Source of the DNA: Anaerohalosphaeraceae bacterium | GTDB taxonomy: Bacteria; Planctomycetota; Phycisphaerae; Sedimentisphaerales; Anaerohalosphaeraceae | Assembly (NCBI GenBank): GCA_963675525.2 | Contig: CAXXSL010000001.1 | Location: 96,001 to 160,000 of the forward strand | Direction of reading: 5' to 3' | DNA length: 64,000 bases | In this document: in pieces, positions 26,862 to 63,745 of the stretch | Layout: each line of letters opens with the position of its first letter | Numbering within the stretch: the first letter of the stretch is position 1 | Program-made: the position numbers and the translations under genes | Notes under the pieces: generated by a model | The model's input: only the letters and a program-made list of their open reading frames with translations | Told to the model about the DNA's origin: nothing | The model's database searches: none

Positions 26862-26865
26862 TTGT

Positions 26866-28857
26866 TCAATTGTTATCGGCGACGGCACGGCTTCTTTTAT
26901 CAACGAAAACGGTCAGATTGCTGACGGTTGAGGCGGCCCGAGGCCGGTTTTGAATAAACCGGTCATTGATTATTTGAGTCGAGAGAATGCCCGCCAGAGC
27001 CATTCCGTCGACTTCGCTGATGTTTTTTGAGGTTCGCAGTTTTTCAATAAGGCGTTGTGTTTTTACAGGATCAAAAATTCCCGCTTGTGCGATAGCGCTG
27101 GAACAGAGCATTTCCTCGATATATTCTGTGCTGTTATACAGCAGGGTTTGTGCAATCGGGGCCCGATACGGGTGTTTAGAGCGGTACGTGATCGAATCGG
27201 GAAGGAGATCGTTAAACACCTTTTTCAGTAAGAATTTTTCATTCAGGCCAAGAATTTTCCAGCGGGCCGGAACACAGCTCATGTATTCCATTAGACGATA
27301 ATCCAGATAGGGCAGGCGAATCTCCAGTGAATGCGCCATGGCCATTCTGTCGCCCTGAGACGAAAGCAGATAGTTGCTGAGAAAAACAGTCGATTCAAGG
27401 TACTGAGCCTTTGAAAGCCAGTGCCAGTGATTAAACCCTTCCGGCAGGGCTGATATAATATCCTGATAACAATCATAGGAACCGATCGATTCCTGAGTAT
27501 CTTGTGAGAAGAATCCTTTTATCTTACTGGTATTCATCCAGCGGATTTTGTGCGAATACAGCGGGTCAGATGTATTTTCAAGGTCCTTGGCGAAGAATGA
27601 TTTTAGTGTTCCGGCCAGGCGGGGATTGTTCAGGATGTAGGGGTACAATTCCTTTAACAGGTCCGCTCTTCGTGAAGAATTGGGCTGACGAGCCCAGAAA
27701 TGCCTTATTTTTGCTTCCCGGAAAATATTGTACCCTCCAAACATTTCATCGGCCCCCTCACCGGTCAGGACGACTTTGAGCCCGGATTCATTGACCTTTT
27801 TGGACAGCAGGAACAGGGGGGTGGGGGCGGTTCGAAGCTGAGGTTTTTCAGCATGATAGACCACGTCAGTAAACGATTCTGCGATGAGCTGATTGGTCGC
27901 CAGCATTTCCGTATGAGCGACATTCAGATGGGCGACCATTTGACGCTGATGTTGGCCCTCATCAAAGGCGGCCTCTTCGAAGCGAATGCCGAAGGTTTGC
28001 AGATTATTGTTGAAATGACGAGCGATTTTTGCCGTGATGCCGGAAGAATCCAGACCGCCGCTGAGATAGGAACCGACCGGAACATCGGCACGAAGCCGGA
28101 TACGGATGGCATCTGTCAGGATTTCATCGACCTTGTCCCGAATCCTTTCTACCGAATCGTGATTTTGATCCTGTGGAACGGCAAAATCAAGCTGCCAGTA
28201 TTTGTGAATGCTGATTTGCCCGTTTTTGGCAAGAAGATAATGTCCCGGCGGCAATTCATGAATATCTTTAAACATGGTACGTCCGGACAGAGTTGTCCAG
28301 AATGTAAAAATCTGGTCCAATGCAACGGGGTCCAGGTTATTCGGAATTTCATTAAGTGTTAATAAGGATTTTATTTCGGAAGCGAAATACAACGTATTAT
28401 TTTGAACAGTATAATGCACCGGACGAATCCCGATTCGGTCACGTGCCAGAAAGAGTTCCTGAGTTTGGTTGTTCCAGATGGCCAGTCCATACTGCCCATT
28501 CATATGCTTGAGACATTCGGGTCCATATTCCTCATATAAGTGCAGAATGACTTCGGTGTCCGATGTGGTATAAAATTGATGCCCGCAAGATAACAGCTTA
28601 TCTCTTAGTTCGGGATAATTAAACATCTCGCCATTATAGATGATCCAGAGGGTATGATCTTCGTTGTGAATGGGTTGGCCGCCGCCGCTTAAATCGATAA
28701 TGCTTAAACGCGCATGTCCCAAGCCTGCCCGGTCATCAATATAGATTCCCGCCTCATCGGGTCCCCGATGAAGCATGATGGAGATCATTTGCATCAGGGT
28801 TTTTGGGTCAGGCGGGTTGAGTGAATCCAGGGAACATATTCCGCTTATTCCACACAT
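26866..28857 (-). CDS. asnB: Asparagine synthase (glutamine-hydrolysing)-like amidotransferase
   Basis: MCGI N-terminus, HRGPD, LSGGLDSS and LTGEGADE motifs. Confidence 0.9.
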   Translation of the reverse strand: MCGISGICSLDSLNPPDPKTLMQMISIMLHRGPDEAGIYIDDRAGLGHARLSIIDLSGGGQPIHNEDHTLWIIYNGEMFNYPELRDKLLSCGHQFYTTSDTEVILHLYEEYGPECLKHMNGQYGLAIWNNQTQELFLARDRIGIRPVHYTVQNNTLYFASEIKSLLTLNEIPNNLDPVALDQIFTFWTTLSGRTMFKDIHELPPGHYLLAKNGQISIHKYWQLDFAVPQDQNHDSVERIRDKVDEILTDAIRIRLRADVPVGSYLSGGLDSSGITAKIARHFNNNLQTFGIRFEEAAFDEGQHQRQMVAHLNVAHTEMLATNQLIAESFTDVVYHAEKPQLRTAPTPLFLLSKKVNESGLKVVLTGEGADEMFGGYNIFREAKIRHFWARQPNSSRRADLLKELYPYILNNPRLAGTLKSFFAKDLENTSDPLYSHKIRWMNTSKIKGFFSQDTQESIGSYDCYQDIISALPEGFNHWHWLSKAQYLESTVFLSNYLLSSQGDRMAMAHSLEIRLPYLDYRLMEYMSCVPARWKILGLNEKFLLKKVFNDLLPDSITYRSKHPYRAPIAQTLLYNSTEYIEEMLCSSAIAQAGIFDPVKTQRLIEKLRTSKNISEVDGMALAGILSTQIINDRFIQNRPRAASTVSNLTVFVDKRSRAVADNN

Positions 28858-29340: not shown

Positions 29341-30000
29341 ATGAGCACAAAGAGACGATTTTTTTTATTATCGGGACTGACCATTCTTTTTTTTCTGGGA
29401 TCAGGATGGTTGTATCAAAAATCTGCCCATTACTTAAATGCCTTAAGTGATATCAAAGTAATGCCGGCCATTCCCTTTGATCAGTTTCCCTATCAAATCG
29501 GTCCCTGGCAGGGGGTCGATCGTCCCTTGTCGGAAACAGTTTTGAAGGTGGCAGCCAATGATGATTATCTCAGCCGTTATTACGTAGACAACAACAGGCA
29601 TCTTCAGGCGACGCTTTATGTGGCTTATACCGCAGAGCCCAGAAAGATGTTAGGGCATCGTCCGCGTGTGTGTTATGTCAACAGCGGTTGGATCCATGAC
29701 GGAACCGAAGAGCAGCGTTTCGAAACAAGTGGAGTCCACAGAATTCCCTGCCAGATCCACCGTTTTCACAAGACCGGATTAGATTATCAGGACGTTGTTG
29801 TATTAAATTACTATGTTGTTAACGGGGAAACGACGTCAGATCACAAAGCGTTTTCCGGCCTGCGCTGGCGGCGGCCTAAAATGGGAAACGGCCGGCTCGA
29901 CTACGTGGCTCAAGTTCAGATCAGTTCCGCATCCGAGTCCAGTGCCCGGATATTAGCGGAAGAGTTATCGGATCTGATTCTTCAGTATCTTCCCGATTAA
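29341..30000 (+). CDS. epsI: Exosortase-associated EpsI family protein
   Basis: FPYQIGPWQG, DDYLSRYY and HRPRVCYVNSGW motifs, with an N-terminal TM helix. Confidence 0.8.
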   Translation: MSTKRRFFLLSGLTILFFLGSGWLYQKSAHYLNALSDIKVMPAIPFDQFPYQIGPWQGVDRPLSETVLKVAANDDYLSRYYVDNNRHLQATLYVAYTAEPRKMLGHRPRVCYVNSGWIHDGTEEQRFETSGVHRIPCQIHRFHKTGLDYQDVVVLNYYVVNGETTSDHKAFSGLRWRRPKMGNGRLDYVAQVQISSASESSARILAEELSDLILQYLPD

Positions 30001-38342: not shown

Positions 38343-38751
38343 TACGATCTACGATTGTGTTGTATTACCCTTAAGCAAAATATATAACAGGGCGGGAAAT
38401 CTTACGGTTATTGAGGGTGGGATCAATGTGCCTTTTTCGATTCGTCGTATTTATTATTTGTACGATATTCCCGGCGGAGAGACTCGGGGAGGGCATGCTC
38501 ATCACAAATTATATCAGCTTATTATTGCTGCCGGCGGCAGTTTTGATGTGTTGCTTGATGATGGTGTCAACCAGAAGGTTGTGACATTGAACCGCCCGAA
38601 CTATGGTCTGTTGGTGGTTCCCGGAATATGGAGGGAGTTGCTGGAGTTCTCGTCGGGGTCGGTTTGTTTGGTTTTGGCGTCTGAAAAATATGACGAAACG
38701 GATTATATCAGGGATTATGCTAAATTCAAGGAATTCAAATGCAAGGCGTGA
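38281..38751 (+). CDS. FdtA/QdtA-family sugar 3,4-ketoisomerase (copy 2); start may be 38308
   Basis: GNLTVIE, YYLYDIPGGETRGGHAH, LASEKYDETDYIRDY. Confidence 0.85.
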   Translation: MKKRIISAIMNSFFSTENRSNTIYDCVVLPLSKIYNRAGNLTVIEGGINVPFSIRRIYYLYDIPGGETRGGHAHHKLYQLIIAAGGSFDVLLDDGVNQKVVTLNRPNYGLLVVPGIWRELLEFSSGSVCLVLASEKYDETDYIRDYAKFKEFKCKA

Positions 38752-40073
38752 TGATTCACCCAACGGCTGAAGTGCAGACAAAGCATATAGGCGAAGGATC
38801 CTGTGTGTGGCAGTATTGTGTGGTTTTAGAAGGCGCCAGGATCGGGAAGAAGTGTAACCTCAATTGCCATGTGTTTGTTGAAAATGATGTTGTATTGGGT
38901 AATAATGTGACCATTAAGTCAGGTGTGCAGTTATGGGATGGATTACGAATAGAAGATGATGTGTTTGTGGGGCCGAATGTAACATTCACAAATGACTTAA
39001 GACCTCGCTCTGGCAGACATTTACAGAGATATTTGCAAACAACACTTAAAAAGGGTGCAAGCATTGGAGCCAAATCAGTAATTGTTGGCAGCAAGACAAT
39101 TGGTCGTTATGCAATGGTTGGCGCAGGAAGTGTTGTAACACATGATATTCCCGACAATACTTTATGGTACGGTAATCCCGCAAGATTCAAAGGATATATA
39201 TGTACATGCGGAAATAAGCTGGATGATGAACAATGGTGTGAGAGATGCAAGAAGAAACTGGATATAGATAGAACGTTAACCATTTCCAGTCAAGTGCAGG
39301 GATTAGCCGTTTCAGATCGAAGAATGGATATTCTTGGCAGGATATCCAAAAAAAGCACGATCTATGAAAATGTCAAACTCGGGAAAGATGTTACAATTTG
39401 TGACGATGCTGTTATTTACAGCAATGTTGAGATTGGAGACGGTTCCTTTATTGGGCAGGGCTGTATTATTGGAGAGCCCCTTGCTGAATTTTATAGCAAT
39501 CGAACAGGTTACGAAAACCCAGCGCTTATAATAGGTAAAAATTCTATTATTCGCAGCCATAGTATACTATATGCGGGTTCAACGATAGGGGAATTTTTTC
39601 ATACAGGTCACAAGGTTGCGATTCGCGAAGGAAGCCAATTCGGGAAAAACTGTTCCGTTGGAACTTATAGCGATATCCAAGGGCATGTCAAGGTAGGGGA
39701 TTATTGTCGTTTTCATAGCAGTGTGCATATCAGTCAGCATACTTTGATTGGAAGTTATGTATTCATTTTCCCGAATGCTGTTTTGACGAATGATCCGCAC
39801 CCGCCTTCGACTTGCATCAAGGGTCCTATCCTGGAGGATTATTGTATTATCAGTGCCGGCGCAATTTTGATGCCTGGTATTACCATCGGAAAGGACAGTA
39901 TTGTCGGAGCAAACTCTCTTGCCAGTAAAGATGTTCCACCTGAATCAGTGGTTATGGGGGTACCGGCTCGTCGAATCTGCTCAATCCATGACATCAAATG
40001 CCAGAATGGATGTGTCGAGAAGCCTTACCCGTGGCGGGATCATTTTTCACGAGGTATGCCTTGGGGGACGTGA
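38739..40073 (+). CDS. Two-domain hexapeptide-repeat (LbH) acyltransferase fusion
   Basis: Two LbH domains, each with FTND/LTND and GNPA/GVPA motifs, linked by CTCG..CERC. Confidence 0.8.
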   Translation: MQGVMIHPTAEVQTKHIGEGSCVWQYCVVLEGARIGKKCNLNCHVFVENDVVLGNNVTIKSGVQLWDGLRIEDDVFVGPNVTFTNDLRPRSGRHLQRYLQTTLKKGASIGAKSVIVGSKTIGRYAMVGAGSVVTHDIPDNTLWYGNPARFKGYICTCGNKLDDEQWCERCKKKLDIDRTLTISSQVQGLAVSDRRMDILGRISKKSTIYENVKLGKDVTICDDAVIYSNVEIGDGSFIGQGCIIGEPLAEFYSNRTGYENPALIIGKNSIIRSHSILYAGSTIGEFFHTGHKVAIREGSQFGKNCSVGTYSDIQGHVKVGDYCRFHSSVHISQHTLIGSYVFIFPNAVLTNDPHPPSTCIKGPILEDYCIISAGAILMPGITIGKDSIVGANSLASKDVPPESVVMGVPARRICSIHDIKCQNGCVEKPYPWRDHFSRGMPWGT

Positions 40074-51720: not shown

Positions 51721-51770
51721 TGTAATTCAAAAATTAGAAAGCAAACCCACGGTTTTTGGAGTATGGGGAG

Positions 51771-52709
51771 ATGAAAAATATTAATAATTTCAGCTTCACA
51801 AAAATCAACAAAGGACTCCTGGTTTTCATTACGATAATAATAGCTCAAACAGTACACGCCTCTGTTGTGGGCGAGGTAATAAAAAAGACAGTAAACCCAT
51901 TTCCAGATTATTTTGGCTTCGGTCTGGCAAATGACGGTGAATATTTATATGTCGGGGGTGCTTCTGACGGTACAATACATGTGCTGGAACCGGATGATTT
52001 GTCTGTTGTCCGGACAATATCTACTCCGGCCCCCTATATATTGGGCATAGAATATTACAATGGTTCCTTGTACGTATCTGACTCAAAACGCATTTATCAA
52101 GTTGATACTTTAACCAATAACGTGACCTCTTTTTTTGACGCACCCAATGATTCGGTCGTCGGTCTTTCGGTCGGACCCGACGGCAGGCTTTATGCTATGG
52201 ACGGGTATGAGGGCAGTTCCTGGTCCAAATCGTATATCTATTCATTTAACATCACTGATAACACATTGAATGACACCTTTGAAATCGGCACCTTGAACCA
52301 AGACCTTGAAATTGACTATAGTGGAGGAAATGATATTATAGAATTCATTGGTGGTTATTTAGTAACAGATGATGATCTTTCGCCCTCTGATTTATCTGTT
52401 TATTCGTTACATGGCAATACATATATAAAAGAGGCTGATTTCCCCATTGAGACGATAAATGGAGATTGGCGAGGATCGACAATAATCGAGGAGACCTTAT
52501 ATTTATGGGGTCAAAATACAGGTTCTGGATATGAGAACGCTTTATTTGAAATACAAATCATCCCGGAACCCTCAACGTTATGTCTCCTTGGATTTGCTGC
52601 CGGAGTTATGCGAATCAAAAGGAGTTTTTCAAGAGGTATGCTTAAGAAATGTTCCAAACCGATAAGCAAAAATATGTGCTATGGATCGGCAGAAAGACAC
52701 TACATTTAA
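51771..52709 (+). CDS. PEP-CTERM protein with beta-propeller-like domain
   Basis: Signal peptide, GLANDGEYLYV-type blades, C-terminal IPEPSTLCLLGFAAGVMRIKR. Confidence 0.8.
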   Translation: MKNINNFSFTKINKGLLVFITIIIAQTVHASVVGEVIKKTVNPFPDYFGFGLANDGEYLYVGGASDGTIHVLEPDDLSVVRTISTPAPYILGIEYYNGSLYVSDSKRIYQVDTLTNNVTSFFDAPNDSVVGLSVGPDGRLYAMDGYEGSSWSKSYIYSFNITDNTLNDTFEIGTLNQDLEIDYSGGNDIIEFIGGYLVTDDDLSPSDLSVYSLHGNTYIKEADFPIETINGDWRGSTIIEETLYLWGQNTGSGYENALFEIQIIPEPSTLCLLGFAAGVMRIKRSFSRGMLKKCSKPISKNMCYGSAERHYI

Positions 52710-54871
52710 TAATTAATATCAAGCGTCAGTTATTGAGATTTATTTACCCAATAATTGGCTTGGCGGCTTTAATATGGTTCTTGATTCGTGTCATTCCCAA
52801 ACCGAGCAGAGCAACATATCCGTGCCAGCGTGCCGCGTTTCCGATTGCTTCTAGTTTCGTGATTTACTTGATGGGTTTACTGGGTGCGGTTGCGATTTTT
52901 CGTCGGGCACAGCATCGCATCAAACAGGCACGCTACGTTTTGGCCGCCGCGTGTATGGTGGTTGGATTGGCCGTGATCTTTTTTACCATGAGCTATCATT
53001 CTGAGACAGTTATAGGGGGAGAGTTTGTGCCGACTGATCTACCGAATTCACCGATTGGACAAGGCAAGGGGATCTTTCCGGGGCGGGTGGTGTGGGTTCA
53101 TGATCCGAACGCAACTTCCTGGGATGGTGTTAGCAACTACTGGTGGGATGACGATCATACGGATTCTGCGACGATCGAATCAATGATGACAAAAGCTGTT
53201 TGTTGGTTAACCCAGCAACCGGAAGAAACAAGTGCCTGGGACTCACTTTTTAGGCAGTATAACACGACACACGGCAAAGGGGATGTAGGCTATTCCGCTG
53301 GTGAAAGAATTGTTATTAAGCCCAACCACAATAACCAACTGTCCCATGACAATAGAGGCAACTCCGTTCCCGACACCCCTCCGGCCGTATATGTGGCCTT
53401 ACTGAAACAACTGGTTTACAAGGCCGGGATAGACCCCAATTATATTACCATATCTGAATCGTCGCGTTATATTGATGACAAGACTTACAATGCTTGTTTT
53501 GCGTTATTTCCCGAAATACGATATGAGGAAACAAATTATTATCTGCCTGAAAACAATCCCGGTACAAATGGTCGGCTGAAGGCCGAACCGGTTCCGAATA
53601 TGGTCGCATGGTCAAGCGTTAATCCGAATACCGGTCAATCGATAGCCAATTATCCACTTGCCAAGACATTTGTGGAAGCGGACTATGTCATCAATCTCGC
53701 CAGGATGCAGGGTCACGGTTTTGCCGGAGCAACACTTAGTGCCAAGAATTGGTATGGATGTTTCTGTCTCAGTCCTGAGTATGACGGCACCTTGCACAGT
53801 GGCAATGTTCTTCATGATCTTGTATCTTCGCCGCAATACGACAGGTATAGTCCATTAGTGGACTTGGCGGGTCATGAATGCCTGGGAGGCAAGACCATAC
53901 TCTATATATTGGACGGACTATGGGGTTTTGAGATTAATTATACGGGCTATCCGACTCAATTCACAAATGTTCCATTTAACGGAGATTACCCGTCGAGTAT
54001 ATTTGTGTCGCAGGATCCGGTGGCGATTGATTCTGTTGGGCTGGATTTTCTGACGTCACAATTTGATCTTAAAGATGTGCCGATCGATAGCTATCTTCAC
54101 GAAGCGGCGTTAGCGGATAATCCTACTTCTGGGGTCTTTTATGACCCTGAAGGGGACGGAACCTGTCTGGAAAGTCTGGGTGTGCATGAACACTGGAACA
54201 ATCCTGCAGATAAGCAGTATTCCCGCAATTTGGATACGGGAAGTGGGATTGAGTTAATCTATGTAAGCCCAACATCTCCTCCGGTTCCTGATCTGTTTGG
54301 GGATCTGGACAAAGACGGATGTGTCGGTATTCTGGATTTTGTCAAATTATCTTCTGCATGGGGTTCAAATCCATCGACCGGAAATTGGGATTCTGATTGT
54401 GATATTGCTCCAATTGGCGGAGACCAGTGTATCGACGTGAAGGATTTTGCGGTCATCAGTAATCAGTGGAACACAGTAACAACTTATGCACTGAAGGCCG
54501 ATTTTAATTTTGATCACAAGGTTTTCACGGATGATTTATATCAATTGCTGAGCCGGTGGCTGACAAATTCAGAACAACCAGGCTGGGTACCACGTTACGA
54601 TGTATTCCCCAATAACGGCGATGGGGTGATAAATAACAAGGATTTTTCATTCTTCAGCAAATACTGGTTGGATGGAGTCGAATTTATCCCGGCCGATTTG
54701 AATCGAGATTTAAGTGTGGACATTGCTGATTTTATTGTATTTATAGAAGCATGGCTTTCTGAGCAGGGGAATACGAATTGGAATGAAAAATGCGATTTTT
54801 GGCCTGTGGATGGCGATGGGCAGATTGATTTTAAGGATTTTTCGGTTTTAGCCCAAGAGTGGATAGAATAG
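52649..54871 (+). CDS. DUF362-domain protein with C-terminal dockerin-like EF-hand repeats
   Basis: PKPSRATYPCQR, GIFPGRVVW, IKPN, KNWYG, DPVAIDSV, GVHEHWN. Repeats GDLDKDGCV..DF..L..W occur three times. Confidence 0.75.
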   Translation: MFQTDKQKYVLWIGRKTLHLIINIKRQLLRFIYPIIGLAALIWFLIRVIPKPSRATYPCQRAAFPIASSFVIYLMGLLGAVAIFRRAQHRIKQARYVLAAACMVVGLAVIFFTMSYHSETVIGGEFVPTDLPNSPIGQGKGIFPGRVVWVHDPNATSWDGVSNYWWDDDHTDSATIESMMTKAVCWLTQQPEETSAWDSLFRQYNTTHGKGDVGYSAGERIVIKPNHNNQLSHDNRGNSVPDTPPAVYVALLKQLVYKAGIDPNYITISESSRYIDDKTYNACFALFPEIRYEETNYYLPENNPGTNGRLKAEPVPNMVAWSSVNPNTGQSIANYPLAKTFVEADYVINLARMQGHGFAGATLSAKNWYGCFCLSPEYDGTLHSGNVLHDLVSSPQYDRYSPLVDLAGHECLGGKTILYILDGLWGFEINYTGYPTQFTNVPFNGDYPSSIFVSQDPVAIDSVGLDFLTSQFDLKDVPIDSYLHEAALADNPTSGVFYDPEGDGTCLESLGVHEHWNNPADKQYSRNLDTGSGIELIYVSPTSPPVPDLFGDLDKDGCVGILDFVKLSSAWGSNPSTGNWDSDCDIAPIGGDQCIDVKDFAVISNQWNTVTTYALKADFNFDHKVFTDDLYQLLSRWLTNSEQPGWVPRYDVFPNNGDGVINNKDFSFFSKYWLDGVEFIPADLNRDLSVDIADFIVFIEAWLSEQGNTNWNEKCDFWPVDGDGQIDFKDFSVLAQEWIE

Positions 54872-55194: not shown

Positions 55195-56163
55195 ATGAAT
55201 ATCTTAATCACAGGCGGCGCAGGGTTTATCGGTTCACATTTGGCCGAGCGGTGTCTTCAGGACGGTCACAGGGTCACGGTGATTGATGATTTAAGTACGG
55301 GGTCCATGGAGAATATTGTTTCCATAAAGGATCACACCAAGTTTGAATTTGTCTATGATACAGTTCGCAATGAAAGCACGATGTATTTGCTGGTCGAAAA
55401 GTGTGATATGATTTTTCACCTGGCCGCCGCGGTAGGAGTACAGTTAATTGTGGATCGGCCGGTCCATACGATCGAGACGAATATTCACGGGACAGAGGTG
55501 GTTTTGTCCGTTGCGAATAAATTCCGTAAAAAAGTGCTGATCGCCTCCACCAGTGAAGTCTACGGCAAAAGCGAGATGGTTCCTTTCCACGAAGACGATG
55601 ATACGGTACTGGGCAGCACGCGTTTCAGCCGGTGGTCTTATGCCTGCAGTAAAGCAATTGATGAGTTCCTGAGTCTTGCCTATCATCAGCAATACGGCTT
55701 GCCAACGATCATTGTTCGGCTTTTTAATACGGTAGGGCCGCGACAAACAGGACGGTATGGCATGGTGATCCCCCGGTTTGTGGAGCGAGCTATGCGAAAC
55801 GAACCCATTCAGATATATGGAGACGGCAGGCAAAGCCGTTGTTTCTGTTGTGTTTATGATGTGGTGGATGGATTGGTGAATCTTATGGACTGTCCTCGGG
55901 CCGCCGGGAAGGTCTTCAATGTGGGCTCGGAAGAAGAGATTTCGATGGAGTTACTGGCAGATAAAATCATTCAAATGACCGCCAGTCAAAGCACCAAAGA
56001 ATATCTGTCTTACGAAGAGGCTTATGGCAAGCCGTTTGATGATATGCGAAAGCGTGTCCCATCACTGGAAAGAATTCAACAAACCGTCGGCTATTCGCCG
56101 AAGTATTCACTTGAGCAAACACTCGAATTGATTATTCAGGACATTAAAAGGCGATTGTCTTAA
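55195..56163 (+). CDS. NAD-dependent nucleotide-sugar epimerase/dehydratase (extended SDR)
   Basis: TGGAGFIGS, STSEVYG, YACSK and RLFNTVGPRQ motifs. Confidence 0.9.
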   Translation: MNILITGGAGFIGSHLAERCLQDGHRVTVIDDLSTGSMENIVSIKDHTKFEFVYDTVRNESTMYLLVEKCDMIFHLAAAVGVQLIVDRPVHTIETNIHGTEVVLSVANKFRKKVLIASTSEVYGKSEMVPFHEDDDTVLGSTRFSRWSYACSKAIDEFLSLAYHQQYGLPTIIVRLFNTVGPRQTGRYGMVIPRFVERAMRNEPIQIYGDGRQSRCFCCVYDVVDGLVNLMDCPRAAGKVFNVGSEEEISMELLADKIIQMTASQSTKEYLSYEEAYGKPFDDMRKRVPSLERIQQTVGYSPKYSLEQTLELIIQDIKRRLS

Positions 56164-56181: not shown

Positions 56182-58188
56182 ATGGCTGACGTTTCCAACA
56201 ACATTGATTATATGAAGGCAGTGATACTCGTCGGGAGCCATGATTTTGGGCGGTGCCCGGTAGCTTCTCGAACGAATCGAGTCCTTTGGCCCGTTTTTGG
56301 AAAGCCGGCATTGCAGGTCCTTCTGGAACAGTTGGCCCGGCAGGGGATCATACGTATTGTCATAAGCTGTGAAAATCATTCTGACATCATTCAGAAATCC
56401 ATCCAATTGCCGAAAGAATTGAATGTCTCATTTCGAGAAGAAACTCTGCCTCGGGGGCCCGCCGGGTGCATTCGAAATGCAGCCGAGCCGGAAGATGAAC
56501 TTCTTTTAGTTCTTTCGGCAAGTATGCTTTATTTGCCCCCGATTGAAGAACTCCTTGATAAGCACCGTCGAACACAGGCGGATATGACGGTTTTTCTGGA
56601 TTCTCAAGAGAATAACAATAAACAATTCCAGCCGGAAGACTCCCAGATTTATCTGTGTGAACGGACTGTTTTATCCTGTATTCCGGAAACCGGTTTTTTT
56701 GATATTAAGGAAGGATTTATTCCTGCCGCCGTAAAAGAGGGATTGCGAATATGCGCTGCTCACTTACGATCCGGATCCGGACATTACCGGAACTGGGCGG
56801 AATACGCAACTCAGCTTAAAAAACAGTGCTTTAGTCAAACACAAAGAGAAATTTTCTTATCCGATTTTTCTTGTTGGTCTGATAGACCGGATGTTCTTAT
56901 CGGCTCGAATGTCCGGATTTCTGAAAAAGCGGAAATTTTCGGTCCTGTTGTCATCGGAGATGATTCAATCATTATGGATGATGTTATGATTTTTGGTCCT
57001 TGCGTTATTGGTCGAGACGCATGCCTCGGACCGGAAAGCATTATCGAAGAAAGTGTTTTGTGGGACCGGGTGACGACAGGGCGGCGATCCAGAATTCGAT
57101 ATTGTTTAGTTGATTATAATATGGCGGTTTCGGATGGTTGTGAAAGATCCAATCAATTAGTTCCTTTTTCCGGATCGAAGATTCAAAAAACATTTAATGC
57201 ATGGAAACGAAAAAAAACACAAAAGACAGTTCAGATTAAGAGTTGCGGTTCCAATGAAGCAGATGCAGAATCCCTGACTTTGGGTATGTTTTTTCAGAGT
57301 AAAACGGAAAAACTTATCGGACTGTTGTTTGCATTATTAATGCTTGGAATATTAATTATCTCATATTGGGAGCCGACGATCAAATCCTTGGCGAAGGTTT
57401 GGCTGGGGAGCGATGAATATTCCAGCGGTCTCTTGGTCCCCATTGTGGCGGTTTATATTCTTTGGTTAAGAAGAAAGACGTTTGGGCATATTATAATTAT
57501 CCCGTCTCTGTGGGCTTTTTTGTTGCTCTTGACAGCTCAAGGAATTCGCTTTTTCGGGCTCTATTATCGGTTCGAATCGGCGGAGCGATTGTCTTTTGTG
57601 CTTTCGATCGGCGCTGTTGTAATCTTGCTTTTGGGCGGACAATTTTTCAAAAAACTATTGCCGATATTTTTGTTCTTATTTCTGATGCTCCCACTGCCAA
57701 ATCGTGTGGAAACCTATATTACGGCACCGTTACAGGTGTGGGCGACGGTTTCTTCTGTTTTTTGCCTGGAAACGCTTGGGTTTTCGGTTATCCGTGAGGG
57801 CAATATTATCAATATTAATGGAACGTTAGTGGCTGTTGCGGAAGCCTGTAATGGATTACGCATGTTAACAGCCTTTGTTGTGGTCACGGCATTGGTAGCG
57901 CTTACAATTAAAAGGAAATGGACAGAGAAGGTCTTGATAGTGATGTCTTGTATTCCTATCGCCTTGATTTGTAATACATTAAGATTGACCGTTACGGCAA
58001 TTGCTTTTACAAAACTGGACACGGAAAGATGGGAAAAGATCTTCCATGATTTCGGGGGTTTTGCCATGATGCCGGTGGCCTTGGCCATTACGATTTTCGA
58101 GCTTTGGGTGTTATCCAATGTGTTGATTAATCCGAAAAATAAACAAGAACAAGTCGTTTATCGTAAAGATAACAATTATTCAAAATAA
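56182..58188 (+). CDS. Fusion: degenerate nucleotidyltransferase + LbH domain + exosortase
   Basis: MKAVILVG..WPVFGKP..REETLPRGPAGCI, LbH (GPVVIGDD..GPCVIGRD), then a multi-TM exosortase with VAEACNGLR (Cys), NTLR (Arg) and FHD (His). Confidence 0.85.
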   Translation: MADVSNNIDYMKAVILVGSHDFGRCPVASRTNRVLWPVFGKPALQVLLEQLARQGIIRIVISCENHSDIIQKSIQLPKELNVSFREETLPRGPAGCIRNAAEPEDELLLVLSASMLYLPPIEELLDKHRRTQADMTVFLDSQENNNKQFQPEDSQIYLCERTVLSCIPETGFFDIKEGFIPAAVKEGLRICAAHLRSGSGHYRNWAEYATQLKKQCFSQTQREIFLSDFSCWSDRPDVLIGSNVRISEKAEIFGPVVIGDDSIIMDDVMIFGPCVIGRDACLGPESIIEESVLWDRVTTGRRSRIRYCLVDYNMAVSDGCERSNQLVPFSGSKIQKTFNAWKRKKTQKTVQIKSCGSNEADAESLTLGMFFQSKTEKLIGLLFALLMLGILIISYWEPTIKSLAKVWLGSDEYSSGLLVPIVAVYILWLRRKTFGHIIIIPSLWAFLLLLTAQGIRFFGLYYRFESAERLSFVLSIGAVVILLLGGQFFKKLLPIFLFLFLMLPLPNRVETYITAPLQVWATVSSVFCLETLGFSVIREGNIININGTLVAVAEACNGLRMLTAFVVVTALVALTIKRKWTEKVLIVMSCIPIALICNTLRLTVTAIAFTKLDTERWEKIFHDFGGFAMMPVALAITIFELWVLSNVLINPKNKQEQVVYRKDNNYSK

Positions 58189-58201
58189 TAAGGATTGCTA
58201 C

Positions 58202-60448
58202 ATGGAGGAATTTGAAAAAAATCAAAATCTGCCGGTGCTCTCAGAGGTTGTTGAGTATGATATGCCGAATCAAGAGCCCGAGACCAATCCTATGGAGTTA
58301 TTGGGGGCTGTTTTGCGGCGATGGTATGTGGTACTACTGGTGTTATTGATTGTTTCCGGTGCCGGCATTTCTGCGGTCTATTTCCTGATGACTAAAAAGT
58401 ATGAGAGTAGCGGGATGATTCGAGTTTCTACTGTTGATACGCCCATCATGTATGAAATCGAAGGACGGTTGCCGCCATATGATACTTTTAAAAATACACA
58501 AGCGACCTTGATAGGACAGGATTTCGTTCTGAATCGTGCTGCCGATGAATTAAAAGATAGAAATTTAAACTTTTTTGAATCGAGACAGGATATTTTCTTA
58601 ACGCTGAAGAAAATGGTAGTTGATAAAGCGATTGAAATTATTCCGGACCGACAAAGTGAATTTATTCACATTCGAATGGAAACGGAATTTCCGCGAGATG
58701 CTGAGCAGGTGATTGATGCGATCATTCGCGGATACATGAGCATTGTTTTTTCCGAGGAAACCAAGGGAGACGATGCGAGATTGACCGCCCTGGAGAAGAG
58801 AAAGAAGATTCTGGAAGACCAGATGGAGCAGCAACGCCTCAAGATCCGTCAGCGTGCCCAAGAGTATGGGACTGAAGAGTTAACCTCTCGGCAGGAAATG
58901 ATGCTGGATCAGGTGGCGACGCTTCAGCAGGAACTGATCGCTATCAGCATTCGACGGATCATGCTGGAAACACAGGTCGAAATGAAGCAGAATCAAGTCG
59001 ATTCTGAGCTGACGGTTGGTGATTTAACCCGGCAGCGACAGGAACTTGTTGAAAGAGACCCGATTGTGCAATCTTTACAAGGTGATGTGAGTCGGTATGA
59101 GGAATTGGTCCGCGAAGGCCAGGCAACGATGCAGGAGAGCAATCCGGAATTAAAACGCCGGGTCGAGATTCTCGAAGATTTAAGACGTCAACTGGAAAAA
59201 CGAAGAAACGAAATTGCATCGGATGTTGAAGGGCGGTTAGCGAAAGAAATTGCCGGTTCACGTAAGGGCGAGTTAAATATGTTAGAGGGAGAATTGAAGC
59301 AGACAATTGCTTACGAAGAACGCCTTCGAAACAAACTCGAGAAAATTGATGCTGATACAATCGGCCTTGGCCGTAAGCAATTCGAAATTGACGATTATTC
59401 CGAACAGCTTGATCAGATCAGGCAGGTTTACAATGATGTCAGTCGACGCATTGAAGAATTGAACACGGAACGATCCCGTCAGCCGCGGATTTCCGTGGGG
59501 TCGTATGCCGGAAGCATTGAAGCAAAAGGCAAACGCAGAAAGATGGCGATGGCTTCAATTTTCGGCGGACTGGCTTTGGGTGTCTTTTTAGCGATTGTGA
59601 TCGATAAACTTGATAAAAGCCTGAAAGGACCGGCTGAGATGGTAAAGCGAATTGGCGTTCGAATTATCGGGACAACCACTTCGCCGCACGATGTCGATAA
59701 AGAGTTGCTTCCTCAGCAACTGATGGATGATTACCAGACAATTTGTACAAACATCGGTTTTCTGGATGATTCAGGAAAAACCAAAACAATTGTGGTGACC
59801 AGTCCCGGGATGGCGGATGGGAAAACGACGTTTTCAATTAACCTGGCGACGAGTTATGTCAAATCGGGATTTAAAACACTTTTGATTGATGGTGATCTTC
59901 GCAAGCCTGATGTCGCCAGAACTCTTAAAATACCGGCTGAGTACCAGCGGGGCCTTCAGGATTATTTATTCGGAGCCGACCTTCAGAAAGCTTTATACAA
60001 ACTTGATTCGATGGATTTCTATGTGTTAGCCGCCGATCATCGTAATTCGTCAGATGCACTTAAAATACTTGCACATCCGCAACTGATTCGTTGCATTCAG
60101 CAACTTCAGAATCATTTCGATAAGATTATCATTGATACGCCGCCTGTACTGGCATTTTCTGACGCGCTTGTTTTGGCACGTATATCGGATGGGGTGGTGC
60201 TGACCAGCTTTGTGGACCATACCTCCAAAGTGGAAATGCGTGAAGCGGTTGATCGACTGAATGAGGTTAATGCACGCATTCTGGGAACGGTCGTCAATAA
60301 TGTCAAGGTGTCTCATAGTTATCGACGCTATGGGTATGGGTATGGGTACGATTACGGAAAAGCATCACGTAAGAAGCAGTCCCAGCGAAGAAAAAGAAAC
60401 TCGGAATCGCTGTTGATTTCGGGAGATATTAATAACACAGGTGATTAG
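58202..60448 (+). CDS. wzc: Polysaccharide co-polymerase / tyrosine autokinase
   Basis: Two TMs around a coiled coil, Walker A SPGMADGKTT, IDGDLRKP, IIDTPP and Tyr cluster YRRYGYGYGYDYG. Confidence 0.9.
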   Translation: MEEFEKNQNLPVLSEVVEYDMPNQEPETNPMELLGAVLRRWYVVLLVLLIVSGAGISAVYFLMTKKYESSGMIRVSTVDTPIMYEIEGRLPPYDTFKNTQATLIGQDFVLNRAADELKDRNLNFFESRQDIFLTLKKMVVDKAIEIIPDRQSEFIHIRMETEFPRDAEQVIDAIIRGYMSIVFSEETKGDDARLTALEKRKKILEDQMEQQRLKIRQRAQEYGTEELTSRQEMMLDQVATLQQELIAISIRRIMLETQVEMKQNQVDSELTVGDLTRQRQELVERDPIVQSLQGDVSRYEELVREGQATMQESNPELKRRVEILEDLRRQLEKRRNEIASDVEGRLAKEIAGSRKGELNMLEGELKQTIAYEERLRNKLEKIDADTIGLGRKQFEIDDYSEQLDQIRQVYNDVSRRIEELNTERSRQPRISVGSYAGSIEAKGKRRKMAMASIFGGLALGVFLAIVIDKLDKSLKGPAEMVKRIGVRIIGTTTSPHDVDKELLPQQLMDDYQTICTNIGFLDDSGKTKTIVVTSPGMADGKTTFSINLATSYVKSGFKTLLIDGDLRKPDVARTLKIPAEYQRGLQDYLFGADLQKALYKLDSMDFYVLAADHRNSSDALKILAHPQLIRCIQQLQNHFDKIIIDTPPVLAFSDALVLARISDGVVLTSFVDHTSKVEMREAVDRLNEVNARILGTVVNNVKVSHSYRRYGYGYGYDYGKASRKKQSQRRKRNSESLLISGDINNTGD

Positions 60449-60475
60449 CCACAGAAGGTTCCCTAGGATAATTTC

Positions 60476-62077
60476 ATGAGGATACTGTTTTTTCCGGAAG
60501 AAGAAGACTTATTGCAGCAGGTTTGTCTGTCCCGGCCTTTCGGGGCGATGTTTATCAATCAGCTTAACCAAAAACTTTTTGTTGGCGGCAGAGATCTTCA
60601 TATTCTACTTCCTGAGCGATGGATGCGGGAAAATCCTCAACTCAAAACGCTCCACCCTTTAAGTTATCAGGAACCGTCTTGGAAAGTGCCCGATTCTTTT
60701 TACGGCTCAGTTCCTGATGAGATTTGTTTTTTGAATGGCCGATTCTTTTTCACAACAGATGAAGCCCACTTAAACGAAACGCTTAGAGGGTGCTCTTGGG
60801 ATATTGCATCAGTTCAGATATGTGCTGATTTGAAAAGCTCCAAAGAGATATTCAAGCTAACCCCTCAAAATCAGGTTGTAGGATTCCGCCGCTTTTACAG
60901 TTCTTCGATTGAGCCGATTGACGCGCCGGATTATTGGCCTCCCTTACTTATCTTGAAAAAAAGCGTTTTTCAAAAGCTTTGTATAAATGGCGGCTTCCCC
61001 ACCGATTTCCAAAGATTAAAACAGGAAATCAGCCGAATGCAATTGAATACCGTAAATTTGCGAGTGGGAGGGGAGATAACTTCTTTTGATGAGCAGTATG
61101 CGTTGTTAGACAGCATGGAAGGGTTTCAGGATAATATTCCGAATCGAAAACAAGCGGCTCTGGCAGCCTCAGGATGTAGAGTAATAGAGCCGGTTTTCAT
61201 TGGAAAGGATGTGATCATTGAATCGGGTACCCGGCTGATCGGCCCGGTGGTGTTATCTGACGGTGTTCATGTTAAGGCCGGATCGGTTGTTCGACGGTCG
61301 ATTCTCGGAGAAGGCATAACGGTTGAACAAAACGGGTTTGTTAATAATCAAGTGTGTTTGAATAGGACGCAAGCCGGATCACTGCTGCCGGCAAATAACA
61401 CGTTTGTACGCGTCGGAGAATTTTCTTTTCCAAAGTACGAATATCGAAGATGGCCGTTCTTTTCATATGCTCGGCTGGGCAAAAGGATTTTTGATATTAT
61501 CGCATCGCTATTGGTTCTGATTTTGCTGGTGCCGGTTTTTCCTTTGGTCATCGTGATGATTAAATTGACCTCACCCGGACCCATTTTTTATAAGGCTCGG
61601 CGTCAGGGGCTGTGGGGTAAAGAATTCGGCTGTATGAAATTTCGCACAATGGTTCAGCAGGCGGATGCAATGCAGGAACGACTTCGAGTTGTCAACCAGG
61701 TGGACGGTCCGCAGTTTAAAATTAAAAACGATCCTCGGATTTCAGGAGCCGGAAAATTTTTACGGGACACCTGTATTGACGAGCTTCCTCAGTTTATTAA
61801 TGTGCTCCTTGGACAAATGAGCATTGTGGGCCCCCGCCCTTCTCCGGAGAATGAAAATGATTCCTGTCCCACATGGCGGGATGCTCGACTGTCGGTCCGG
61901 CCGGGAATTACAGGACTTTGGCAGGTTTTACGGACTCGGCAGGCCGGGGAGGACTTTCAGGAATGGGTTTTTTATGACACCCAATATGTAAGAAATTTGT
62001 CATTTGGAAAAGATCTTTGGATTTGCGCAAAAACGGCCCACATGCTGATTAATACGTTTTTAAAGCAGTTTGGATAA
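60476..62077 (+). CDS. Priming (undecaprenyl-phosphate) sugar transferase with N-terminal degenerate nucleotidyltransferase/LbH module
   Basis: C-terminal KRIFDI..SPGPIFY..KFRTM..DPRI..DELPQFINVL.GQMSIVGPRP..RPGITGLWQV. N-terminal FLNGRF, VVGFRR and LbH (PVFIGKDVIIESGTRLIGPVVL). Confidence 0.85.
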   Translation: MRILFFPEEEDLLQQVCLSRPFGAMFINQLNQKLFVGGRDLHILLPERWMRENPQLKTLHPLSYQEPSWKVPDSFYGSVPDEICFLNGRFFFTTDEAHLNETLRGCSWDIASVQICADLKSSKEIFKLTPQNQVVGFRRFYSSSIEPIDAPDYWPPLLILKKSVFQKLCINGGFPTDFQRLKQEISRMQLNTVNLRVGGEITSFDEQYALLDSMEGFQDNIPNRKQAALAASGCRVIEPVFIGKDVIIESGTRLIGPVVLSDGVHVKAGSVVRRSILGEGITVEQNGFVNNQVCLNRTQAGSLLPANNTFVRVGEFSFPKYEYRRWPFFSYARLGKRIFDIIASLLVLILLVPVFPLVIVMIKLTSPGPIFYKARRQGLWGKEFGCMKFRTMVQQADAMQERLRVVNQVDGPQFKIKNDPRISGAGKFLRDTCIDELPQFINVLLGQMSIVGPRPSPENENDSCPTWRDARLSVRPGITGLWQVLRTRQAGEDFQEWVFYDTQYVRNLSFGKDLWICAKTAHMLINTFLKQFG

Positions 62078-62545: not shown

Positions 62546-62776
62546 ATGTTATTTTTTTTAATCTGCGCAAGACAGATCAGAAAGGAGGCAGTTCAAAGAA
62601 AAACAAGAGATTTTTCCTCATTACGGGTTTGTATGTTATTTCCAATTCCAGTCCGGTGTAGGACTGGAAACCAAACCGGTAGATTGTCGCGGCAGGCAAG
62701 GGTCTGCCGCCAGCCGCGGCGTTCTGCCAAAACGAGAAATTGAATAATTTTGAAGTTGAAGGCTTCGGAGAGCAAG

Positions 62777-63745
62777 ATGATGAAAAATGTTGTTACTGTA
62801 TTAGTCATGATTTTTGTGATAACAAGTGTGGCAAACGCGGCAAATTCGGCAAGCATTGTTTCCGGTTCACTGGTACAGGGGGATGTGGCCGCCGCAATGG
62901 AAAAAGGCAACGCCGCGTACCAGGGCGGTTATGGCGAGGAGACAAGTAATTTGAGCGATTGGAATTTTGATACGGGTGAATTTCCCTGGAGTCCCGGCAC
63001 CTATGGGGCGATCTCCACAACAAATAGCAATTTGAACGCTTATAGCGACGGTTGGGGCAGCTACGGAACAGCCACTGATACTGTCATTGGATTTGGCAAT
63101 GGCGGTTCCGTGACGCTTCAACTTGACAATGTAATATATGGTGTTGACGGCGAAAAAGAGTTCGGTTTGTTCACCGCCCAAATGCTGGACGCCTACGGTT
63201 CGGCTGGTAGTTTCTGGAACGGCAATATGGAAGCAGCTATTCTGGTCAGCCAAAACGGATCTGATTGGGTAACGTTGGACGGGACAAATGTTGCTCAGGA
63301 TTACACAGCCAGCAGCCATTATCTCAATACGCCGACCGTGGGATACAACTACGAGACCCTTGCAACAGCATGGGCTTACGGCACGGGCGCGACAATGGCA
63401 CAACTGAATGCGTTATCCGTTGCGGATTACACAACTCCAATGATTGATGACGATCTTTTTAATGGCAGCGGTGATAATGATGCTCGAGCCGCAATGGCTT
63501 TGGATTCGACGACAGCCGGTTATGATTCCGTTTTCGGCACCTCCGGCGGCGGGAACTGGTTTGATATTTCCTTCTGCGGTCTTGGCAGTGTTGAATATAT
63601 TCAATTAAATGGTATTAATTGTACTCCCGGTAAGGGAATCCGCCTTGATGCTGTTTTTACCACAGATGCTGCAGTGGTTCCTGAACCGGCGACAATGTTC
63701 CTGCTTGGATTGGGAAGTTTACTCGTTAGAACAAGAAGAAAATAA
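62777..63745 (+). CDS. B12-riboswitch-controlled PEP-CTERM cell-surface protein
   Basis: GGAG RBS, signal peptide ending ANA, C-terminal VPEPATMFLLGLGSLLVRTRRK. Confidence 0.88.
   Translation: MMKNVVTVLVMIFVITSVANAANSASIVSGSLVQGDVAAAMEKGNAAYQGGYGEETSNLSDWNFDTGEFPWSPGTYGAISTTNSNLNAYSDGWGSYGTATDTVIGFGNGGSVTLQLDNVIYGVDGEKEFGLFTAQMLDAYGSAGSFWNGNMEAAILVSQNGSDWVTLDGTNVAQDYTASSHYLNTPTVGYNYETLATAWAYGTGATMAQLNALSVADYTTPMIDDDLFNGSGDNDARAAMALDSTTAGYDSVFGTSGGGNWFDISFCGLGSVEYIQLNGINCTPGKGIRLDAVFTTDAAVVPEPATMFLLGLGSLLVRTRRK

What the first reader, a model, noticed from the sequence alone, without database searches (positions are those of the whole stretch)
56182..62077. Exosortase and priming glycosyltransferase both carry a pseudo-nucleotidyltransferase/LbH module: candidate coupled sorting-glycosylation machine
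Seen: the exosortase ORF (Cys/Arg/His residues intact) begins with ~370 aa of GDP-mannose-pyrophosphorylase-like architecture, an NT fold plus LbH. The canonical GxGTRL..PK signature there is replaced by GSHDFGRCP..NR. Two genes later the Bac_transf priming transferase has an even more degenerate NT-like plus LbH N-terminus. They flank wzc in one tight operon, and each fusion is a single open frame. Known: NT+LbH proteins form heteromers with non-catalytic regulatory subunits (GlgC/GlgD, GMPPA/GMPPB, eIF2B gamma/epsilon), and exosortases normally lack such domains. Inference: the two cytoplasmic pseudo-enzyme domains dock together or sense NDP-sugar/sugar-phosphate. That would couple PEP-CTERM protein processing to initiation of lipid-linked glycan synthesis.
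Basis: partly seen in the sequence, partly recalled or inferred. Interest (0 to 1): 0.85.

Follow-up and report, generated by a model that had tools for sequence, protein, structure and literature searches.

The report
Dead-enzyme docking pair on priming glycosyltransferase
In these planctomycete bacteria a protein-sorting enzyme and the enzyme that starts surface-sugar synthesis each carry a copy of a sugar-activating enzyme that has lost its catalytic residues; the two copies almost always occur together and likely clip onto each other, which would tie whatever carries the loose copy (the sorting enzyme here, a second sugar transferase in another lineage) to the first step of sugar-chain building.

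Summary
Both fusions are real: single open frames, conserved, under purifying selection. The scan reported this exosortase fusion before in three other genomes. Domain A (on the exosortase) and domain B (on the priming transferase, PGT) are homologous GMPP/CugP-fold pseudo-enzymes. In 151 genomes of the class, 64 carry this PGT subfamily and all 64 carry A; one has A alone. A is fused to exosortase in one clade, fused to a WecG/TagA glycosyltransferase in 12 genomes of another family, and free elsewhere; 18 of 47 unfused cassettes show no exosortase. Single-chain pseudo-enzyme:PGT proteins lie outside the split clade and carry A's motifs, most also B's hairpin. A kept the base-binding loop and an invariant DIKE (charge swap of the catalytic Glu-Lys) but lost the hairpin; B kept only the hairpin (Glu124 60/60, Arg139 59/60). 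Best reading: after duplication A became a non-catalytic partner subunit of the PGT, and the exosortase is carried along. Binding is inferred, not shown; no complex model was available. No description found in nine literature searches.

The parts
56182..58188 (+). A:exosortase fusion gene, 668 aa (P0001)
   Evidence: conserved as one frame in 28 fetched loci
56212..56856 (+). Domain A, pseudo-nucleotidyltransferase (about residues 11-225), GMPP/CugP fold, sugar-binding hairpin deleted
56233..56256 (+). Degenerate glycine loop GSHDFGRC (replaces GGxGTRL; VTC1 Arg13 position is Gly23)
56440..56466 (+). Retained base-binding loop E87..P90-R91-G92-P-A-G95
   Evidence: G92 and G95 in 148/148, D/E87 in 141/148; VTC1 residues 80 and 85 bind guanine (PMC9168903)
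56701..56712 (+). Invariant D174-I-K176-E177; aligns to VTC1 S-I-E195-K196, a charge swap
   Evidence: D 149/149, K 147/149, E 149/149; alignment
56887..57159 (+). LbH domain of A (about residues 236-326)
57313..58131 (+). Exosortase domain, triad C556/R601/H622
   Evidence: PF09721 E 2e-52, TIGR02602 and TIGR04178 over cut-off; motifs in 28/28 fusions
58202..60448 (+). wzc, polysaccharide co-polymerase / tyrosine autokinase, 748 aa
   Evidence: TIGR01007 over cut-off
60476..62077 (+). B:PGT fusion gene, 533 aa (P0002)
60476..61120 (+). Domain B, more degenerate pseudo-nucleotidyltransferase; no glycine loop, no DIKE
60845..60892 (+). Beta-hairpin of B with invariant E124 and R139 (canonical Gly and Glu of the sugar site)
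   Evidence: strands 124-128 and 134-139 in the model; E 60/60, R 59/60; alignment
61169..61363 (+). LbH domain of B (about residues 232-296)
61481..62050 (+). Monotopic phosphoglycosyl transferase catalytic domain, D435-E436, single hydrophobic helix 340-358
   Evidence: PF02397 E 6e-60
55195..56163 (+). NAD-dependent epimerase/dehydratase, first gene of the operon here; not part of the conserved core
29341..30000 (+). EpsI-like gene (DUF3485); in many relatives it sits inside the cassette next to the exosortase

Best explanation
The priming phosphoglycosyl transferase (PGT) of this cluster carries a dead nucleotidyltransferase/LbH domain (B), and the related dead domain on the exosortase (A) is likely its partner subunit, predicted to bind B on the cytoplasmic face of the inner membrane and so to hold the exosortase next to the first step of lipid-linked glycan synthesis. 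Shown: both domains have the GMPP/CugP fold without the catalytic residues; A and this PGT subfamily co-occur almost perfectly; A is free, exosortase-fused or WecG-fused by lineage; single-chain relatives carry both motif sets. Inferred: a single-chain pseudo-enzyme:PGT that worked as a homo-oligomer was duplicated, one copy lost the PGT and the hairpin (A), the other lost the nucleotide loop and DIKE (B), so the two now make one obligate A-B unit, possibly with B's hairpin filling the gap in A. Inferred, weaker (about 45%): A's remodelled pocket binds a nucleotide or nucleotide-sugar without turnover and tunes PGT activity. The exosortase fusion arose once from neighbouring genes and works as a tether; direct control of the exosortase is not required.
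For: Co-occurrence: 64 of 64 genomes with this PGT subfamily have A or its divergent form A', 64 of 65 with A have the PGT, 86 of 151 have neither. Internal control for linkage: exosortase is missing from 18 and wzc from 5 of 47 unfused cassettes while A and the PGT stay; in G055 and G092 the two are unlinked yet both kept. Rosetta stones: A-type domain fused directly to PGT in 19 proteins and 3 loci, to WecG in 12 genomes. Complementary loss: single chains have RG[PT]AG and D-x-[KR]-[EG]-Q in 19/19, canonical relatives 0/39; B has the hairpin Glu in 60/60 and DIKE in 0/60; A has DIKE in 147-149/149 and a 23-residue gap at the hairpin. Trees: the 51 split-system PGTs are one clade (99/99) with single chains outside; clades of A mirror those of the PGT. 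dN/dS 0.09-0.46 for A and 0.09-0.52 for B in six pairs. LbH is shortened in both A' (25-62 of 94 columns, 7 rows) and B' (52-53 of 87, 7 rows) in the same lineage. Precedents: this fold dimerises through LbH (PMC9168903), inactive GMPPA regulates GMPPB (PMC11228364), and the WbaP cap domain dimerises by a swapped beta-hairpin and binds uridine nucleotides (PMC10942596).
Against: No direct evidence of binding. B has lost its LbH in 4 loci (L021, L049, L051, L052) while A kept it, so an LbH-LbH contact cannot be universal. A and B evolve faster than the catalytic domains (exosortase 0.06-0.14, PGT 0.05-0.22), and dS is near saturation, so the ratios are rough. Kin are not independent and the genes are usually linked. 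G074 has A and wzc without this PGT, and G026 has a stop between B and PGT. Both fusions of A are to a neighbouring gene, which adjacency alone could produce. The NT-domain tree is a quick search with weak deep support.
Confidence: 0.6

Rival explanations
1. Dedicated sorting-glycosylation switch: the pair exists to pass a signal between exosortase and PGT, so that PEP-CTERM processing and glycan initiation control each other.
For: The fusion is fixed in one clade (28 loci; 99/98 support). An exosortase gene lies in 29 of 47 unfused cassettes, often right behind A. The genome has 59 PEP-CTERM tails over cut-off.
Against: 18 of 47 unfused cassettes show no exosortase; A is fused to WecG in 12 genomes; G038 split the fusion again; a plain exosortase exists in this genome and in 40 of 41 relatives some exosortase is found while only 22 have A. 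The triad is predicted on the outer membrane face (PMC1569441), opposite A.
Confidence: 0.15
2. Independent modules: A and B do not touch. B is a cis cap of the PGT; A is a separate nucleotide sensor or homo-oligomeric scaffold acting on Wzc or another cluster protein, and co-occurrence reflects linkage.
For: A lies directly before wzc in many unfused cassettes; B can lose its LbH; the fold forms homodimers.
Against: Five cassettes have A and the PGT without wzc, three of them as adjacent genes (L037, L051, L052); two genomes keep both unlinked; complementary motif loss is not explained.
Confidence: 0.17
3. Hidden enzyme: A, or A and B together, still make or break a nucleotide-sugar for the PGT by altered chemistry.
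For: Invariant polar residues cluster at the former active site (G92, G95, D174, K176, E177); fusion to the consumer enzyme would suit channelling.
Against: GxG[TS]R at the loop, hairpin EKP and WxDxG are absent in 149 of 149 A proteins; B lacks them too, so the pair cannot complement; the genome has intact RmlA, ManC-type, GalU and GlmU-type enzymes elsewhere.
Confidence: 0.06
4. Decaying passenger domains with no function.
For: Low identity between lineages; several partial losses.
Against: dN/dS below 1 in all six pairs, invariant new motifs, confident folds (pLDDT 89 and 91), presence in 65 of 151 genomes.
Confidence: 0.02

Closest known systems
GMPPA/GMPPB (and plant VTC1 with KONJAC; PDB 7d72, 8yre)
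   Same: NT+LbH fold (TM 0.66-0.80 for A); an inactive paralogue as partner subunit; GMPPA binds GDP-mannose and inhibits GMPPB (PMC11228364, passages).
   Different: There the partner is an active pyrophosphorylase. Here both NT domains are dead and the catalytic unit is a fused membrane PGT.
eIF2B gamma/epsilon subcomplex
   Same: Second-best solved match of the A profile (E 2.5e-35); similar worn motifs in the alignment (PRCLLP, YQDIRKD). Recalled, not tested: two dead NT+LbH subunits, one carrying an unrelated catalytic domain at its C-terminus.
   Different: Eukaryotic translation factor. A's nearest active relatives are bacterial GMPP/CugP-type enzymes, so the likeness is probably convergent; eIF2B was not in my tree.
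Large monotopic PGTs (WbaP, EpsZ with EpsW)
   Same: Same catalytic domain with an N-terminal cytoplasmic cap. The WbaP cap dimerises by a swapped beta-hairpin and binds UMP/UDP/UTP (PMC10942596, passages); EpsZ lacks the hairpin and is activated by a partner in trans (PMC12802240, passages).
PEP-CTERM/exosortase EPS loci (EpsH/XrtA with EpsI, Wzc, TPR protein; PMC1569441)
   Same: Exosortase with CxG, NxxR, HxxxG; EpsI-like, wzc and TPR genes in the cassette of relatives; many PEP-CTERM substrates.
   Different: 330-aa cytoplasmic pseudo-enzyme at the N-terminus; below cut-off of every named subtype model (best XrtD 161 of 400 bits, XrtA 137 of 208).
Cyanobacterial CugP-type UDP-glucose pyrophosphorylase (PDB 8x7s, tlr0611)
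   Same: Best solved match of A by sequence profile (E 4e-47) and by fold.
   Different: Active enzyme with GxGTR, PKP and EKP intact in the alignment; A has none.

Membership tests
Active sugar-1-phosphate nucleotidyltransferase (GMPP/CugP/RmlA type) | NT fold followed by LbH | tested here: met
   models and fold searches
Active sugar-1-phosphate nucleotidyltransferase (GMPP/CugP/RmlA type) | GxG[TS]R loop and PK lysine (VTC1 Arg13, Lys23) | tested here: not met
   A: Gly23 and Arg33; loop motif in 0/149; Lys not among the six commonest residues. B: loop absent
Active sugar-1-phosphate nucleotidyltransferase (GMPP/CugP/RmlA type) | Metal-binding aspartates (VTC1 Asp111, Asp219) | tested here: not met
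   A: Ser114, WxDxG in 0/149; B: NGR for NGD
Active sugar-1-phosphate nucleotidyltransferase (GMPP/CugP/RmlA type) | Sugar-binding hairpin with EKP | tested here: not met
   deleted in A; in B present but Gly to Glu and Glu to Arg
Active sugar-1-phosphate nucleotidyltransferase (GMPP/CugP/RmlA type) | Pyrophosphorylase activity | not testable with these tools
   needs assay
Exosortase (TIGR02602 / TIGR04178) | Family model over cut-off | tested here: met
   121 bits vs 105.55; 57.7 vs 23
Exosortase (TIGR02602 / TIGR04178) | CxG, NxxR, HxxxG triad | tested here: met
   C556, R601, H622; 28/28 fusions
Exosortase (TIGR02602 / TIGR04178) | PEP-CTERM substrates in the genome | tested here: met
   59 of 62 matches over cut-off; which of the two exosortases serves them is unknown
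Named exosortase subtypes (XrtA, XrtD, XrtW and others) | Subtype model over cut-off | tested here: not met
Monotopic PGT (PF02397) | Catalytic domain with Asp-Glu dyad and one membrane helix | tested here: met
   E 6e-60; DE-x-PQ in 59/60 B proteins, the exception being the stop-split G026
Large monotopic PGT (WbaP/WcaJ type) | Four-helix membrane bundle plus PF13727 cap | tested here: not met
   no hydrophobic segment in the first 320 residues, no PF13727 hit
Pseudo-enzyme regulatory subunit (GMPPA-like) | Binds its paralogous partner | not testable with these tools
Pseudo-enzyme regulatory subunit (GMPPA-like) | Binds a nucleotide ligand without turnover | tested here: inconclusive
   base-binding loop kept, sugar site remodelled; no binding data

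The most novel reading that the evidence does not exclude
A is a portable docking tag for the priming transferase: a bacterial double-pseudo-enzyme heterodimer built like eIF2B gamma/epsilon that recruits whichever protein it is fused to. In one lineage it channels the PGT product to WecG; in this one it holds a dedicated exosortase on the glycan assembly line, and that exosortase transfers cleaved PEP-CTERM proteins onto the lipid-linked glycan begun by this PGT, which would identify the unknown exosortase acceptor.
Probability: 0.15. Interest if true: 0.88.

Novelty: new variant of a known kind. Interest (0 to 1): 0.63.

Why it matters
How the committed first step of surface-glycan synthesis is regulated after translation is only partly known, and what exosortases attach their substrates to is described as unidentified (PMC7468200, passage). 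This system offers two small soluble domains with invariant, mutable residues (K176/E177 in A, E124/R139 in B) and a natural series: single chain, split pair, WecG-fused, exosortase-fused. It makes a physical link between exosortase and glycan initiation directly testable, shows a homo- to hetero-oligomer transition of a pseudo-enzyme, and corrects annotation: these proteins look like pyrophosphorylases or are missed altogether. It occurs in 65 of 151 sampled genomes of the class.

Tried and rejected
Pairwise BLAST of A against B found only a weak LbH stretch (E 8e-5); profiles were needed. Promoter and terminator counts equal shuffles (13 vs 13.9; 11 vs 8.8). My first view that B can occur without A (family f14) was wrong: a divergent A' lies upstream. 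My first wzc profile was contaminated by a DUF362 protein of similar length (seen); wzc labels were redone by BLASTP and a clean profile. Six regex hits to canonical motifs among A proteins lie at other positions. Rejected: missing-enzyme role as for CugP (four intact NTs in the genome), frameshift or missed stop, decay. Two papers were not held: the monoPGT similarity-network study and Haft 2012; either, or supplements I did not open, may list these fusions. Covariation between A and B was not attempted (about 75 pairs in three clades).
Full report
OBSERVATION. The window holds a four-gene run on the + strand: epimerase (55195-56163), a 668-aa exosortase fusion (56182-58188), wzc (58202-60448) and a 533-aa priming phosphoglycosyl transferase, PGT (60476-62077). 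It closes a cluster with a flippase and several glycosyltransferases. The exosortase has NTP_transferase and LbH hits ahead of the membrane part and an intact C556/R601/H622 triad. The PGT has an LbH and an N-terminal domain that Pfam misses. I call the two N-terminal modules A and B. Their profiles match each other (P 99.4%). Both fold confidently (pLDDT 91 and 89) and match GMPP, CugP, GlmU and eIF2B structures. Neither has a hydrophobic segment before its membrane domain, so both should be cytoplasmic.

NOT AN ARTEFACT. Among the own genome and 40 relatives of the order, the same 22 carry both genes. Twenty have A and exosortase in one frame; G038 has A, epsI and exosortase as three genes; G020 is cut by contig ends. 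One of the 22 PGTs has a stop between B and the catalytic domain (G026). In six genome pairs dN/dS is 0.09-0.46 for A and 0.09-0.52 for B, against 0.06-0.14 for the exosortase (four pairs) and 0.05-0.22 for the PGT (five pairs); dS is about 0.7-2.9, so these are rough.

BOTH DOMAINS LACK THE CATALYTIC RESIDUES. I mapped A on plant GMPP VTC1 (alignment; residue roles from the Results section of PMC9168903). Arg13 becomes Gly23, Lys23 becomes Arg33, Asp111 becomes Ser114, the Asp219 motif is gone, and 23 residues of the sugar-binding hairpin are deleted. Among P0001 and 148 representatives from the profile search, the canonical loop, hairpin EKP and WxDxG occur in none. What is kept is the base-binding loop (G92 and G95 in 148 of 148, D/E87 in 141 of 148) and D174-I-K176-E177 (149, 147 and 149 of 149), which aligns with VTC1 S-I-E195-K196, a charge swap of two catalytic residues. 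B shows the reverse: no glycine loop, no DIKE (0 of 60), but the hairpin is kept with Glu124 in 60 of 60 and Arg139 in 59 of 60, at the positions of the canonical Gly and Glu. The model puts them at the base of two paired strands (124-128, 134-139). The genome has intact RmlA, ManC-type, GalU and GlmU-type enzymes elsewhere (names from motifs and my knowledge), so A fills no gap.

THE CONSERVED UNIT IS A PLUS PGT. In 151 genomes of the class, 32 have A and 35 a divergent form A', 65 in all. The PGT subfamily (E up to 1e-55; ordinary PGTs scored no better than 6e-38 with a family query) is in 64. All 64 have A or A'; only G074 has A without it; 86 have neither. Gene maps of the fetched loci give: 28 A:exosortase fusions; 12 fusions of A' to the C-terminus of a WecG/TagA glycosyltransferase, all in family f14 (7 confirmed by Pfam; 5 by my profile); and free A or A' in the rest. 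Of 47 cassettes in which A is not exosortase-fused and the PGT lies in the same stretch, 29 contain an exosortase gene and 18 do not; 5 lack wzc. Left out of that count: loci where a partner is outside the stretch or past a contig end (L047, L053, L068, L075, L076, L087, L103, L104) and the three single-chain loci. The stretches are 11-20 kb and exosortases elsewhere in those genomes were not searched. In G055 and G092 A' and the PGT are unlinked but both kept. Conversely 40 of 41 genomes of the order have some exosortase, and this genome has a second, plain one with its own wzc on C19. The fullest gene order is wecG, A, exosortase, epsI, wzc, B:PGT, TPR protein: A has fused to its left neighbour in one lineage and to its right neighbour in another. 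This genome has no WecG, its TPR orthologue is on C5 and its epsI 26 kb upstream.

ORIGIN. Single-chain proteins with one pseudo-NT/LbH on a PGT occur in three fetched loci (two outside the class) and as 19 database proteins. All 19 have RG[PT]AG and D-x-[KR]-[EG]-Q and none has the canonical loop, EKP or WxDxG; 39 canonical relatives show the opposite (0 of 39 and 35-38 of 39). Most single chains also keep the hairpin, many with B's Glu. Atlas clusters with NTP_transferase, Hexapep and Bac_transf are commonest in Acidobacteriota, Nitrospirota, Chloroflexota and Planctomycetota (whether all are degenerate was not checked). In a tree of PGT domains (58 rows) the 51 split-system enzymes form one clade (99/99) with the five single chains outside; the 21 exosortase-fused cassettes plus G038 form one clade (99/98) with G038 nested, so one fusion and a later split are inferred; the A'/B' lineage is a clade (100/99). 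A quick tree of A-type domains (53 rows, B left out) recovers the same groups and puts single chains next to the canonical enzymes, with weak deep support. The outgroup branches are long and no AU test was run.

MECHANISM. Shown: two dead paralogous domains with complementary conserved features, near-perfect co-occurrence, and fusion of A to three different partners, one of them the PGT itself. Inferred (0.6): the single-chain enzyme was a homo-oligomer; after duplication A kept one half of the functional surface and B the other, so A is now a partner subunit of the PGT. This fold dimerises through its LbH (PMC9168903), and the LbH is shortened in both A' and B' of one lineage, a single event. 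Against a universal LbH contact, B has lost it in four loci where A kept it; the hairpin is the part of B that never goes. WbaP offers a model: its cap dimerises by a swapped hairpin and binds UMP, UDP and UTP (PMC10942596, passages), and hairpin-less EpsZ needs a partner in trans (PMC12802240, passages). Inferred, weaker (about 0.45): A's pocket binds a nucleotide, as inactive GMPPA binds GDP-mannose (PMC11228364, passages). If A binds B, the exosortase here is tethered to the PGT, and WecG, which by established knowledge adds the second sugar to the PGT product, is tethered in family f14. The exosortase triad is predicted on the outer face (PMC1569441, passages), so tethering is more likely than direct allostery. 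No complex model could be made.

NOVELTY. Nine literature searches (listings only unless cited above) gave no description of either fusion or of the A/B pair; two relevant papers were not held and no supplements were read. Bifunctional PGTs with fused domains are a known class (PMC10942596), and pseudo-enzyme partners of this fold are known, so this is a new variant of a known kind. Three earlier notes of this scan report the exosortase fusion in other genomes; a word search for the WecG fusion returned nothing. The exosortase acceptor is described as unidentified (PMC7468200, passage; see also PMC11980579, passages), which sets the upside.

VERDICT. Observation confirmed; interpretation partly supported. 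Interest 0.63.

Noticed in passing
G000:C19 186-195 kb (L090:7945-18478, - strand): Second, plain exosortase in a run lipoprotein, exosortase, 336-aa ORF, 1603-aa TPR protein, wzc, with no PGT alongside; this type occurs in nearly all relatives.
   Followed up: partly
window 29341-30000: EpsI-like gene 26 kb upstream of the exosortase, separated from it by large secreted-protein genes and the glycosyltransferase cluster; the TPR orthologue lies on C5:131719-135936. The cassette is partly dispersed in this genome.
   Followed up: partly
window 38739-40073: 444-aa protein with two tandem LbH acetyltransferase-like units, between a cupin-like sugar isomerase candidate (38281) and a PLP aminotransferase (40115): looks like a dTDP-3-amino-sugar pathway.
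   Followed up: no
window 61481-62050 and all split-system PGTs: The PGT subfamily has its own motifs: vDGPQFK, GPRPSPxEN and DFxEWxxYD.
   Followed up: no
L092 and L093 (family f19): Minimal cassette A', exosortase, about 0.7 kb gap, B':PGT with no wzc.
   Followed up: partly
L038, L039, L042, L044, L046, L053: A heparinase II/III-like gene (about 700 aa) directly precedes free A in six loci.
   Followed up: no
Atlas cluster, rank 21: A 933-aa cluster (73 members, commonest Pseudomonadota) with WecG 100%, Bac_transf 96% and Hexapep 29%: a possible one-chain WecG-PGT version of the same link; score 0.90, a lead only.
   Followed up: no
window 52649-54871, 51756-52709, 62750-63745: DUF362 plus dockerin-like protein and two PEP-CTERM proteins flank the operon; candidate substrates of the fused exosortase.
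   Followed up: no
window 14604-16247 and 13919-14851: Amino-acid permease and a following USP-like ORF overlap in different frames, possibly one frameshifted gene.
   Followed up: no
window 24271-28857 (- strand): Asparagine synthase (glutamine-hydrolysing)-like, AMP-ligase and NAD-synthetase-like trio; similar genes precede the fused exosortase in L019.
   Followed up: no
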